Shown here one piece after another: positions 26,373 to 27,929 of a DNA stretch of 64,000 bases; the stretch's first letter is position 1; the number at the start of each line of letters is the position of its first letter. Position numbers and translations under genes: made by a program. The notes under the pieces were generated by a model. That model ran no database searches and was not told where the DNA came from. It saw nothing but the letters and a program-made list of their open reading frames with translations. The DNA comes from Candidatus Enterousia sp. (GTDB taxonomy: Bacteria; Pseudomonadota; Alphaproteobacteria; Rs-D84): the NCBI GenBank assembly GCA_045613785.1, contig JAZLBQ010000004.1:47830-111829 (forward strand), given 5' to 3'.

Positions 26373-27929
26373 TTATTGCATTCTTACAACGCTACAACTT
26401 GTTCCGCTAAATTTTAACAACTTGTCGCATAATGTTTGTGCTGTGTCAATATCTGCCAATGGGCCAATACGCAAGCGATACTGGCGTGCTGTTGTTGAGT
26501 CTGCACCTAATTCTCCGACACCTTGTTCATCAACTGCAAAGAAAACCATATTTTTATAAGGTGTCAACAATCCTTGACCATTTTCACCGCTGAATTTAGC
26601 CAACAACATTGTCCAATAATCGTCCAAGGCCTTGACAGAAGTATCTGATTTTAATTCTACGGCAACACCAACCTGATTACTTGAAATCAGTGGGATGTTG
26701 GTTTGTGGTAAATAAGCCCCTGCTGTATTTCGTTGTGTTGGCAACATGTTTACAACACTTCCTGACGAGCGAGGCATTGTCTGTGGTGCAGTAAATCCTG
26801 CTGGCATATAATATCCTGCACCAGTTGTCTGATTGACAGTTTGATTATTTTCAACGAATACAGGTGTCCCGGTATATGGTGTTCCCATACTCATTGCAGC
26901 CATACTGTCAGTATATGCGATGTTGCTTAGTGATTGTCCAGACAGCATACTCTGTGCAACATTTGCCTCTGCCAGTGCCATCACAGATGCGGTATCAGCA
27001 ATCAAGAACGGTTTTTCACGTTTTTTGATGCAAACAATACGTTGTCCGCTACGCAGAACCATATCGCCCACGGCCTCTACAATCAACAAGCGACCGTCTT
27101 CACCATCTGTGCGGAATCCAACAGGAGATTCGCCACCTTCTACCAACAGTGAAACAACAGGGCGTTGCGTCATTGCGATAACCTTGTCGCCAAAATCAAT
27201 GTATGTGAAGATACGATCACGCCAAACACGCTCTGGTGCGATTACATAGTCGTCTGGGTTTGGAACAAAGATGTCTAAATCGAAACGAAATTCCGAAGGA
27301 TCGATTTTCATTGATTTAATCCAGCCATAGTCTTCGCCATCAACACCGACTGTATTTGTTGCGTTGCTTGAAGTTGCGGCCTTTTTGAATATAGAACTTG
27401 CCCCACCAGAAACAGGAACGTTTCCTGCGGTTGGCAGTGCAACATTGCCGTCCAGGACTACATCGACTTGTGAATATGTAATTTCACTGGAATTAGATGG
27501 TTCGCTACGCAAATAGAAGATATATTTATTTCCTGATTTGCCTGTTACAATCATATTAGTATCAGACCCTTGGTTAGAACCGACTGGTGAAATAAACATT
27601 GTCTGACCGCCCTGAGTCGCATCAATGTCAAACAAGTCTTGGTTTCCAACCATTGCATCTGCAATCTGTTCACCATTTGGCAATGTAACCATAGTTACCA
27701 TTCCATTACGCAGTTTGATTGGTAAAACACTGCCTGCAGACCAAGCCAACTGTGCATATCCTGGTTTTGTGCTACCGCTGGCCATATTTGCCATTGGGTT
27801 ATCCCATGCCTCTTGCACACCGTATTCTGTTATTGCAGAATATGCCGGCAACGTCAACAGACCTGCCAGGCAAAAAACAGACATATTAAATCTTAGTGCT
27901 TTTACGAAACTCATACCAATCCTTCCCAT
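26373..27929 (-). CDS. virB9: Type IV secretion VirB9/TrbG/CagX-family protein with a C-terminal extension ending in a SPOR-like domain, 518 aa
   Basis: Signal peptide. VirB9 N-domain (PIKLRNGMVTMVTLPNGEQI). VirB9 C-domain (RVWRDRIFTYIDFGDKVIAMTQRPVVSLLVEGGESPVGFRTDGEDGRLLIVEAVGDMVLRSGQRIVCIKK). Then an extra region of about 200 aa whose last 80 aa resemble SPOR (YRLRIGPLADIDTAQTLCDKLLKFSGTSCSVV). Confidence 0.85.
   Translation of the reverse strand: MGRIGMSFVKALRFNMSVFCLAGLLTLPAYSAITEYGVQEAWDNPMANMASGSTKPGYAQLAWSAGSVLPIKLRNGMVTMVTLPNGEQIADAMVGNQDLFDIDATQGGQTMFISPVGSNQGSDTNMIVTGKSGNKYIFYLRSEPSNSSEITYSQVDVVLDGNVALPTAGNVPVSGGASSIFKKAATSSNATNTVGVDGEDYGWIKSMKIDPSEFRFDLDIFVPNPDDYVIAPERVWRDRIFTYIDFGDKVIAMTQRPVVSLLVEGGESPVGFRTDGEDGRLLIVEAVGDMVLRSGQRIVCIKKREKPFLIADTASVMALAEANVAQSMLSGQSLSNIAYTDSMAAMSMGTPYTGTPVFVENNQTVNQTTGAGYYMPAGFTAPQTMPRSSGSVVNMLPTQRNTAGAYLPQTNIPLISSNQVGVAVELKSDTSVKALDDYWTMLLAKFSGENGQGLLTPYKNMVFFAVDEQGVGELGADSTTARQYRLRIGPLADIDTAQTLCDKLLKFSGTSCSVVRMQ

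What the first reader, a model, noticed from the sequence alone, without database searches (positions are those of the whole stretch)
26373..26640. VirB9 homolog carries a C-terminal SPOR-like peptidoglycan-binding domain
After a complete VirB9 C-domain (ending ...LRSGQRIVCIKK) the protein continues for about 200 aa. The last 80 aa or so (VGVAVELKSDTSVKALDDYWTMLLAKF...VFFAVDEQGVGELGADSTTARQYRLRIGPLADIDTAQTLCDKLLKFSGTSCSVV) match the two-repeat pattern of SPOR domains, including the YR(V/L)R(V/I)GP and C-x-VV ending. The same window holds a second SPOR fusion: the D,D-carboxypeptidase at 16301..17518 ends GLYRVRVYGLSESAAQNL...DSYVF. SPOR domains bind denuded glycan strands at division septa. 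A SPOR-tethered VirB9 would anchor the outer-membrane core complex to septal or remodelled peptidoglycan. I do not know of this fusion in described VirB9/TrbG/CagX proteins.
Basis: partly seen in the sequence, partly recalled or inferred. Interest (0 to 1): 0.65.

Follow-up and report, generated by a model that had tools for sequence, protein, structure and literature searches.

The report
VirB9 with a divergent SPOR tail
A core outer-membrane protein (VirB9) of a type IV secretion machine in a small-genome gut bacterium carries, on a long flexible tether, a real but altered copy of the SPOR cell-wall-binding domain, and the one residue that normally grips the cell-wall sugar chain is changed in every member of this protein family.

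Summary
ORF 26373..27929 (-) is a VirB9/TrbG protein lying between virB8 and virB10. After the VirB9 core (ending ...IVCIKK303) it continues for 215 aa: a roughly 115-aa linker predicted to be disordered, then a 100-aa domain (residues 419-518, window 26376..26675).

Four lines of evidence place that domain in the SPOR superfamily:
- The Pfam match is marginal for this protein, but 24 of 27 diverse relatives match SPOR.
- A profile of the tail retrieves bona fide SPOR proteins from 1.84 billion sequences.
- hhalign against canonical SPORs gives 99.3% probability.
- The AlphaFold model is beta-alpha-beta-beta-alpha-beta, and its best named PDB matches are the RlpA, CwlC, DedD and DamX SPOR domains.

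The fusion is not a one-off. Every one of about 250 VirB9 relatives examined has the tail, including 225 Candidatus Enterousia-clade species genomes, other alphaproteobacterial MAGs and two Sphingomonadales megaplasmids. It is under strong purifying selection.

The glycan-contacting Gln is Glu in 247 of 248 tails, and Asp in the other tail and in the plasmid clade. This is the FtsN Q251E change, which weakens denuded-glycan binding. The conserved aromatic residue is also lost. Peptidoglycan tethering of the T4SS core is therefore the likeliest function but is unproven, and the ligand may differ. I found no literature on this fusion.

The parts
26373..27914 (-). VirB9/TrbG gene with a C-terminal SPOR-family tail. 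The likely start is Met6 of the longest ORF, which runs to 27929. The stop codon is at 26373-26375.
   Evidence: ORF listing; Pfam CagX 79 bits; 100%-identical database protein of 513 aa; purifying selection along the whole gene.
27837..27914 (-). Predicted Sec signal peptide (residues 6-31, ...LTLPAYS|A), implying export to the periplasm.
   Evidence: Read from the sequence. The full-length model has an N-terminal helix at residues 4-20 of the 513-aa form. No dedicated signal-peptide predictor was available.
27021..27752 (-). VirB9 core (residues 60-303): an N-terminal and a C-terminal beta-sandwich domain joined by a variable loop.
   Evidence: Pfam PF03524, E 5e-22. AF2 full-length model: beta-rich blocks with pLDDT about 90 (N-domain) and about 80 (C-domain).
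26676..27020 (-). Linker (residues 304-418), rich in Ala, Thr, Ser, Pro, Asn, Met and Gly and predicted to be disordered. Its first roughly 40 residues (REKPFLIADTASVMALAEANVAQSMLSGQSL...) are almost invariant within the Enterousia clade.
   Evidence: pLDDT below 50 for residues 302-414 of the 513-aa form; composition; conservation profile; not alignable across distant family members.
26376..26675 (-). SPOR-family domain (residues 419-518), beta-alpha-beta-beta-alpha-beta with a long beta2-beta3 loop. Motifs: VAVE425L, W439, YR485LR487IGP, LC501..L, C512SVVR516MQ518.
26655..26657 (-). Codon for Glu425, at the position of the canonical glycan-binding Gln of SPOR domains.
   Evidence: Profile-profile and joint alignments put it on the Q of VQLG. 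The canonical profile aligns that Q with FtsN MVQCGSF. It is Glu in 247 of 248 tails.
26394..26429 (-). Stretch bounded by the codons of Cys501 (26427-26429, helix alpha2) and Cys512 (26394-26396, start of beta4). This Cys pair is invariant and probably forms a periplasmic disulfide.
   Evidence: Both Cys are present in 248 of 248 tails. The same pair occurs in the canonical sister SPOR subfamily. The disulfide itself is inferred.
27943..28614 (-). virB8, immediately upstream in the same operon.
   Evidence: Pfam VirB8, E 8e-11.
23952..26354 (-). virB10/trbI (800 aa), immediately downstream. It has a Pro/Glu-rich N-terminal region and a roughly 200-aa Cys-rich C-terminal extension.
   Evidence: Pfam TrbI at residues 392-598, E 2e-17; sequence.
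17303..17509 (+). Canonical SPOR domain (residues 335-403) of the D,D-carboxypeptidase at 16301..17518. It keeps the Gln and the aromatic residue (GVQFGAF) and serves as an internal comparison.
   Evidence: Pfam SPOR 37.5 bits; sequence; joint alignment.

Best explanation
The gene encodes a periplasmic VirB9 subunit of a chromosomal VirB/Rvh-like type IV secretion system in a Candidatus Enterousia-type alphaproteobacterium (order Rs-D84, genomes under 1 Mb).

Shown:
- Behind the normal two-domain VirB9 core there is a roughly 115-residue linker predicted to be disordered, followed by a 100-residue domain.
- That domain is a genuine, divergent member of the SPOR superfamily. It derives from an alphaproteobacterial SPOR subtype that has two conserved cysteines.

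Inferred:
- After Sec export, the core assembles with VirB10 into the outer-membrane core complex.
- The tethers, one per VirB9 copy (about 14 per complex in known VirB systems), let the SPOR modules reach the peptidoglycan layer below and bind glycan strands.
- This pins or positions the machine in the sacculus, possibly at sites of wall remodelling such as the septum or new pole.

The binding cleft is not canonical. The glycan-contacting Gln is an invariant Glu (Asp in the plasmid clade) and the aromatic residue is lost. The ligand or affinity therefore probably differs from the denuded glycans read by FtsN, DamX and RlpA.
For: Domain identity:
- A tail profile searched against 1.84 billion representatives returns VirB9-type tails plus bona fide SPOR proteins at E of about 1e-7. 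Of 37 such hits, 32 are Pfam SPOR.
- Of 27 diverse tails, 24 hit PF05036 and no other family.
- hhalign of the tail family against canonical SPORs gives 99.2-99.3% probability, E 2e-19 to 3e-20, over 85-87 columns.
- That canonical profile itself finds CwlC and FtsN SPOR structures by sequence.

Architecture:
- In the full-length model the core and SPOR domains are confident, residues 302-414 have pLDDT below 50, and pTM is 0.33, so the domains are independent.

Selection and conservation:
- All of about 250 relatives examined carry the tail, and 225 species genomes encode a relative.
- dN in the SPOR region is 0.01-0.20 while dS is saturated.
- Surface residues E425, R485/R487 and R516 are near-invariant.

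Context:
- The gene order is virB8-virB9-virB10, and the same order is seen in distant relatives.
- The same genome uses a canonical SPOR on a peptidoglycan enzyme, so peptidoglycan and SPOR biology are present.

Precedent:
- OmpA-like peptidoglycan-binding proteins DotK and Dis1 are components of the Dot/Icm outer-membrane complex (PMC9302130).
Against: - No binding or localisation data exist.
- The most conserved glycan contact (Gln) is replaced by Glu or Asp family-wide. FtsN Q251E weakens denuded-glycan binding and septal localisation.
- HMM position 12, normally Phe, is Asp429.
- Pfam support for this single protein is marginal and covers only the second half of the domain.
- Tail profiles find no solved SPOR structure by sequence.
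- The SPOR model has only moderate confidence (pLDDT 76).
- No other T4SS genes (virB4, virB6, virB11, virD4) and no cell-wall amidase lie in this window. Neither the completeness of the machine nor a source of denuded glycan was shown.
Confidence: 0.6

Rival explanations
1. The domain is SPOR-derived but has been repurposed. It has lost glycan binding and instead mediates a protein-protein contact inside the T4SS, for example with the extended VirB10 or with a VirB7-like lipoprotein, or it forms an intersubunit ring.
For: The invariant acidic residue replaces the key Gln, and the aromatic residue is lost. Q251E is a loss-of-binding lesion in FtsN. VirB10 in these systems carries unusual long extensions: 800 aa here and 2274 aa in L081. 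No virB7 is recognisable in the locus.
Against: The conserved Arg residues of beta3 (YRLRIGP) and the whole SPOR scaffold, including the Cys pair, are retained. A 115-residue floppy tether suits reaching a distant layer better than forming a fixed intra-complex contact. No partner has been identified.
Confidence: 0.25
2. The tail is a targeting device rather than an anchor. It recognises septal or otherwise remodelled peptidoglycan so that new T4SS complexes assemble at division sites and end up at the new poles.
For: All characterised SPOR domains target proteins to septal denuded glycans (PMC6895207; bioRxiv 10.1101/2022.07.01.498525). Homology to SPOR is strong.
Against: The binding-cleft changes are exactly those that reduce septal localisation in FtsN. 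Nothing in the sequence data speaks to localisation. This rival is not exclusive of the anchoring model.
Confidence: 0.2
3. The resemblance to SPOR is a chance match, or the extension is an artefact such as a read-through, frameshift or assembly chimera, and has no function.
For: The Pfam score is below the gathering threshold in the full-length protein (19.2 against 21) and covers half the model. PDB sequence searches with tail profiles return only noise.
Against: hhalign gives 99.3% probability. The reciprocal profile search retrieves SPOR proteins. Fold matches are to SPOR structures. The tail is conserved in about 250 cluster representatives and 225 species genomes, with low dN and saturated dS.
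Confidence: 0.03

Closest known systems
SPOR domains of FtsN, DamX, DedD, RlpA (Proteobacteria) and CwlC (Bacillus); Pfam PF05036
   Same: They share the beta-alpha-beta-beta-alpha-beta fold and the YR(L/V)R(I/V)GP beta3 motif. Both are C-terminal, both are periplasmic, and both are attached by a low-complexity linker. Profile-profile homology is 99.3%.
   Different: The tail is attached to a secretion-system core subunit rather than to a divisome or peptidoglycan-enzyme protein. The glycan-contacting Gln is an invariant Glu or Asp, and the position-12 aromatic residue is lost. The beta2-beta3 loop is long. The Cys pair links alpha2 and beta4, whereas in FtsN it links beta1 and beta4 (PMC6895207).
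Alphaproteobacterial two-cysteine SPOR subtype (e.g. hits P0136, P0146-P0148, P0152; ...YWVQLGSF...W...YRLRxGPF...LCxxL...CxVV)
   Same: These are the nearest sequence relatives of the tail. They share the alpha1 Trp, the RLRxGP motif, the LCxxL motif and the CxVV ending.
   Different: They keep the canonical Q and aromatic residue, often occur as tandem SPORs or with TPR repeats, and have no VirB9 domain.
Canonical VirB9/TraO/TrbG/CagX (PF03524)
   Same: The two-domain core is shared, as is the virB8-virB9-virB10 gene order.
   Different: The closest tail-less homologues found here are 318-325 aa (Paracaedimonas and Roseibium plasmids). The protein in this window adds 215 residues.
DotK and Dis1 of the Legionella Dot/Icm T4BSS outer-membrane complex
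   Same: Each is a peptidoglycan-binding module built into the outer-membrane complex of a type IV secretion system (PMC9302130).
   Different: DotK and Dis1 are separate lipoproteins with OmpA-like domains in a type IVB system. Here a SPOR-family domain is fused covalently to the VirB9 core subunit of a type IVA-like system.
D,D-carboxypeptidase-SPOR fusion in the same window (16301..17518)
   Same: It comes from the same genome and has a C-terminal SPOR behind a low-complexity linker.
   Different: Its SPOR is canonical (GVQFGAF, 37.5 bits) and lacks the Cys pair. It sits on a peptidoglycan enzyme, which is the usual kind of SPOR carrier.

Membership tests
SPOR domain (Pfam PF05036) | Match to the Pfam SPOR profile above the gathering score | tested here: inconclusive
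   For this protein the score is 19.2 bits in the full-length sequence (below 21) and 22.7 bits on the isolated tail, covering only profile positions 38-76. At family level, 24 of 27 diverse tails match at E <= 0.01 (best 2.7e-9) and no other family matches. Many relatives carry precomputed PF05036.
SPOR domain (Pfam PF05036) | Homology to bona fide SPOR domains over the whole domain | tested here: met
   hhalign gives 99.2-99.3% probability, E 2e-19 to 3e-20, over 85-87 columns from beta1 to beta4. The tail profile retrieves SPOR proteins from 1.84 billion sequences. The canonical comparison profile finds CwlC and FtsN in the PDB.
SPOR domain (Pfam PF05036) | RNP-like beta-alpha-beta-beta-alpha-beta fold superposable on solved SPOR structures | tested here: met
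   [not shown]
SPOR domain (Pfam PF05036) | Conserved beta1 Gln that contacts NAM/NAG (RlpA Q270, FtsN Q251, DamX Q351) | tested here: not met
   It is Glu425 here. It is Glu in 247 of 248 tails and Asp in 1, and Asp in the Sphingomonadales clade. The alignment is supported. The residue's role is taken from PMC6895207 and bioRxiv 10.1101/2024.05.13.594014.
SPOR domain (Pfam PF05036) | Aromatic residue (usually Phe) at HMM position 12, which stacks on the glycan | tested here: not met
   It is Asp429 here. Across the family it is mostly Asp or Gly. The feature is taken from PMC6895207.
SPOR domain (Pfam PF05036) | Binds denuded peptidoglycan glycan strands or localises to the septum | not testable with these tools
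   This needs sacculus pull-down, ITC and fluorescence localisation.
VirB9/TrbG/CagX (Pfam PF03524) | Match to the CagX/VirB9 profile above the gathering score | tested here: met
   79 bits against a cut-off of 34.2, covering residues 60-303 and profile positions 5-197 of 198.
VirB9/TrbG/CagX (Pfam PF03524) | Encoded between virB8 and virB10 in a T4SS operon | tested here: met
   VirB8 is at 27943..28614 and TrbI/VirB10 at 23952..26354, both on the same strand. The same order is seen in L081, L083, L084 and L085.
VirB9/TrbG/CagX (Pfam PF03524) | Part of a complete T4SS (VirB4, VirB6, VirB11, VirD4 present) | not tested
   None of these genes lies in the 64-kb window. The rest of the genome was not available. 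VirB11 follows virB10 in the distant relatives L081, L083, L084 and L085.
OmpA-like / LysM / PG_binding_1 anchoring modules of secretion machines | Match to one of those peptidoglycan-binding domain families | tested here: not met
   Pfam reports no such family for the VirB9 or its tail at E <= 1.

The most novel reading that the evidence does not exclude
The VirB9-borne domain is a neofunctionalised SPOR. Its invariant acidic residue in place of the glycan-binding Gln makes it read something other than denuded glycan. Candidates are a positively charged wall feature such as de-N-acetylated sugar or a peptide-stem amine, or a T4SS partner. Through that ligand the domain would position or license the secretion machine at particular envelope sites. 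This would define a new functional class of SPOR domain and the first wall-reading module built into a type IVA core complex.
Probability: 0.3. Interest if true: 0.7.

Novelty: new variant of a known kind. Interest (0 to 1): 0.5.

Why it matters
How trans-envelope machines cope with the peptidoglycan layer is only partly understood for type IV secretion systems. The known solutions are lytic transglycosylases (VirB1) and, in Dot/Icm, accessory OmpA-like lipoproteins.

This case differs. A whole lineage of alphaproteobacterial T4SSs has a SPOR-family module on a long tether fused to the core subunit itself. It is conserved under strong selection even in genomes under 1 Mb. That points to a built-in wall anchor or positioning device.

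For SPOR biology, the family provides a natural, invariant Gln-to-Glu/Asp variant of the binding cleft. This tests whether all SPOR domains read denuded glycans.

Two cultured hosts carry the same architecture on megaplasmids (Sphingosinicella sp. BN140058 and Erythrobacter aureus YH-07), so the question is open to experiment.

Tried and rejected
- PDB sequence searches with tail profiles A1 and A4 found only noise, such as antibody heavy chains and coiled coils. I do not count this as evidence against SPOR. SPOR domains share under 20% identity, and even the canonical window SPOR found only CwlC weakly. The canonical sister profile served as a positive control and found CwlC, FtsN and RlpA.
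- The Foldseek afdb50 library was unavailable.
- The primary mutagenesis papers on FtsN and DamX SPOR (PMC3837948, PMC3732209) are not held. The Q251E result is cited from a later preprint.
- tblastn of the tail alone against 72,556 plasmids found nothing. However, inspecting the closest plasmid VirB9 genes showed they carry a more divergent version of the same tail. The tblastn negative was therefore a sensitivity limit.
- The Microvirga pMVF16-3 VirB9 (550 aa) tail looks SPOR-like by eye but was not detected by the tail HMM or by Pfam. I leave it unassigned.
- I rejected the artefact and chance readings. Conservation, dN/dS, hhalign and fold matches all argue against them.
- No other T4SS genes were found in the window.
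Full report
**What is there**

The ORF at 26373..27929 (-) encodes 518 aa. The 100%-identical database protein is 513 aa, so the real start is probably Met6 at 27914. It is followed by a signal-peptide-like segment (...LTLPAYS|A).

Pfam assigns residues 60-303 to CagX/VirB9 (79 bits, E 5e-22). The flanking genes on the same strand are VirB8 (27943..28614) and a long TrbI/VirB10 (23952..26354, 800 aa). 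The module sits among housekeeping genes: yidC upstream, then tRNA-Trp, nusG, rplK, rplA and rpoBC downstream. No other T4SS gene is in the window.

The closest genomes are MAGs of Candidatus Enterousia (98% identity, L001) and "Alphaproteobacteria bacterium" from animal and human guts, and 225 species-level genomes encode a relative. Enterousia belongs to the order Rs-D84, whose genomes are mostly under 1 Mb (PMC12306168).

**Checking the observation**

The quoted peptide is at residues 420-518. The stated coordinates (26373..26640) begin at residue 431 and so clip the first strand. The domain is 26376..26675.

For this single sequence the Pfam SPOR match is marginal. It scores 19.2 bits in the full protein, below the gathering score of 21, and 22.7 bits on the isolated tail. 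It covers only profile positions 38-76, the second beta-alpha-beta half.

The companion claim is correct. The D,D-carboxypeptidase at 16301..17518 carries a clear canonical SPOR at residues 335-403 (37.5 bits).

**Is the tail a SPOR domain?**

Yes, by four independent routes:
1. A profile of 28 tails (A1) was searched against 1.84 billion representatives and gave 57 hits at E <= 1e-3. These were VirB9-type tails plus proteins such as P0136 and P0137 at E of about 1e-7, which Pfam scores as strong SPOR proteins at 96 and 117 bits. Of 37 hits scanned, 32 are Pfam SPOR.
2. Of 27 mutually diverse tails (A4, 29-63% identical to the query tail), 24 match PF05036 at E <= 0.01 (best 2.7e-9). No other family appears.
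3. Profile-profile comparison of the tail family with a set of canonical SPOR domains gives 99.2-99.3% probability, E 2e-19 to 3e-20. It spans 85-87 columns from beta1 to the C-terminus. That canonical profile in turn finds the solved SPOR domains of CwlC (E 5e-7), FtsN (0.012) and RlpA (about 0.3) by sequence.
4. The AlphaFold2 model of the tail (pLDDT 76, pTM 0.68) is beta-alpha-beta-beta-alpha-beta.
   - Foldseek's three best hits are RlpA, RlpA and DedD SPOR domains.

Tail profiles alone do not reach solved SPORs by sequence. That fits the very low sequence identity among SPOR domains.

**Architecture**

In the full-length model the VirB9 N-domain has pLDDT of about 90, the C-domain about 80 and the SPOR domain 63-86. 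Residues 302-414 of the 513-aa form are below 50, and pTM is 0.33, so the domains behave as beads on a string.

The linker is rich in Ala, Thr, Ser, Pro, Asn, Met and Gly. It is not alignable between distant family members, whereas the SPOR domain is.

**Distribution and selection**

All 120 best relatives of the query (77-100% identity, 447-524 aa) have the tail. So do all 117 additional relatives at 33-54% identity (463-631 aa), which are named "Alphaproteobacteria bacterium" or "Rickettsiales bacterium" MAGs. About 45 of these already carry precomputed PF05036+PF03524.

Distant members sit in virB8(-virB8)-virB9-virB10-virB11 clusters.

Against 17 Enterousia-clade loci, synonymous sites are saturated (dS above 1.5 or undefined). 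dN in the SPOR segment is 0.01-0.20, and omega is at most 0.12 where it can be computed, much like the VirB9 core. The extension is therefore a selected part of the protein and not a read-through artefact.

tblastn against 72,556 plasmids matched only the core (residues ~33-300), and the tail alone matched nothing. However, the closest plasmid VirB9s are themselves 430-432 aa and end in ...Y(M/E)VDLG...VRLRVGPF...VCKAM...SC(S/A)V(V/I)S. They come from Sphingosinicella sp. BN140058 p1 and an Erythrobacter aureus YH-07 plasmid. This roughly 40-cluster family aligns to canonical SPOR at 98.0% (E 2.6e-13) and to the Enterousia-type tail at 98.2%. More distant plasmid VirB9s from Roseibium and Paracaedimonas, 318-325 aa, have no tail.

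hhalign (twice), a joint MAFFT alignment and the FtsN bridge all place Glu425 on the Gln of the canonical "VQLG(A/S)F" strand. That Gln (RlpA Q270, FtsN Q251, DamX Q351) is the only glycan contact that is highly conserved among SPOR structures. HMM position 12 is preferentially Phe, which stacks on the sugar (PMC6895207). The engineered FtsN Q251E substitution reduces denuded-glycan binding and septal localisation (bioRxiv 10.1101/2024.05.13.594014).

In 248 VirB9 tails aligned to the family HMM, this position is Glu 247 times and Asp once. In the Sphingomonadales clade it is Asp. The aromatic position is Asp429 here, and mostly Asp or Gly across the family.

By contrast, several features are invariant or nearly so and are shared with the canonical two-Cys sister subtype: the alpha1 Trp (247/248), Leu-Arg of YRLRIGP (248/248), both cysteines (248/248) and Arg516 (245/248). 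The carboxypeptidase SPOR in the same window keeps the Gln and Phe (GVQFGAF).

The acidic residue is thus a derived signature of VirB9-attached SPORs, fixed in two deep branches.

**Mechanism: what is shown and what is inferred**

Shown: the domain identity, the tethered architecture, family-wide conservation, purifying selection and the altered cleft.

Inferred:
- The protein is exported by Sec, and the core joins VirB10 in the outer-membrane core complex. From established VirB structures, this has 14 copies and the VirB9 C-domain lies in the O-layer under the outer membrane.
- The roughly 115-residue tethers let the SPOR modules reach the peptidoglycan below.
- Cys501 and Cys512 form a periplasmic disulfide.
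- The modules bind glycan strands, and multivalency may compensate for a weak site. This anchors or positions the machine.

Because of the Gln-to-Glu change, I put canonical denuded-glycan reading at no better than even odds. Two readings remain open: a different wall ligand, or a protein partner (the rival explanation). Septal or polar targeting is possible but unsupported by any data here.

**Comparison with known systems**

The domain works most like a SPOR domain and is homologous to them, but two defining binding-site features were tested and not met. I therefore file it as a divergent SPOR-family domain, not as a canonical denuded-glycan reader.

The carrier is a bona fide VirB9.

The functional analogy is to peptidoglycan-binding accessory components of other envelope machines, such as the OmpA-like DotK and Dis1 in the Dot/Icm outer-membrane complex (PMC9302130). 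Here the module is fused covalently to the core subunit and belongs to a different fold family.

**Novelty**

Full-text searches for VirB9 with "SPOR domain", "type IV secretion" with "SPOR domain", and VirB9 with "peptidoglycan-binding domain" returned no paper describing this fusion. The domain pair is, however, already visible in automated annotations.

I rate it a new variant of a known kind: interesting, testable, but not categorically new.

Noticed in passing
window 23952..26354 (-): The VirB10/TrbI protein is unusually long (800 aa). It has a Pro/Glu-rich (PEPEPEP...) region before the TrbI domain. After the TrbI domain it has a roughly 200-aa extension ending in a Cys-rich motif (...CEGDIAPDANGCCPGEIYTDMGEQGFNCCPETGGDCFPPIL). 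In a distant relative (L081) the VirB10 is 2274 aa.
   Followed up: partly
window 26907..27020 (-), VirB9 residues 304-341: The first ~40 residues of the 'linker' (REKPFLIADTASVMALAEANVAQSMLSGQSLSNIAYT) are about 100% conserved across the Enterousia clade and partly conserved in distant members (e.g. P0134). They are weakly predicted as a helix. This is a possible interaction segment of unknown function.
   Followed up: partly
L083:3848-5140 (Sphingosinicella sp. BN140058 plasmid p1, WP_129392748.1); L084:2854-4152 (Erythrobacter aureus YH-07 plasmid, WP_115418090.1): Megaplasmids of cultured Sphingomonadales encode 430-432-aa VirB9 proteins with a more divergent two-Cys SPOR-like tail that has Asp at the Gln position. 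Pfam does not detect it, and the proteins are annotated only as TrbG/VirB9. These hosts are tractable models for experiments.
   Followed up: yes
L085:2734-4386 (Microvirga sp. VF16 pMVF16-3, WP_203447098.1): This 550-aa VirB9 has a Pro/Ala-rich linker and a C-terminus (AIILGPYSKAEGEQVW...SICDVRRRHGDTCLVAE) that looks SPOR-like by eye. Neither the tail HMM nor Pfam detected it.
   Followed up: partly
protein P0165 (450 aa): A VirB9-type SPOR tail identical to that of P0159 sits behind an N-terminal region that has no VirB9 match. This is either a different carrier protein for this SPOR subtype or a chimeric gene call or contig.
   Followed up: no
[not shown]
   Followed up: partly
window 1347..3368 (-), 51174..52268 (+), 52332..53975 (+), 55769..58072 (+), 58171..60375 (+): Several large ORFs (364-767 aa) in this reduced genome have no Pfam match at the thresholds used. 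They are candidate lineage-specific surface or effector proteins.
   Followed up: no
window 22920..23659 (-): Two small ORFs (113 and 114 aa) lie downstream of virB10 on the same strand and have no Pfam match. virB11 follows virB10 in distant relatives but not here.
   Followed up: partly
window 46193..48148 (-): A ComEC/Rec2-type competence protein (Competence + DUF4131) is encoded in the same window as the T4SS module.
   Followed up: no
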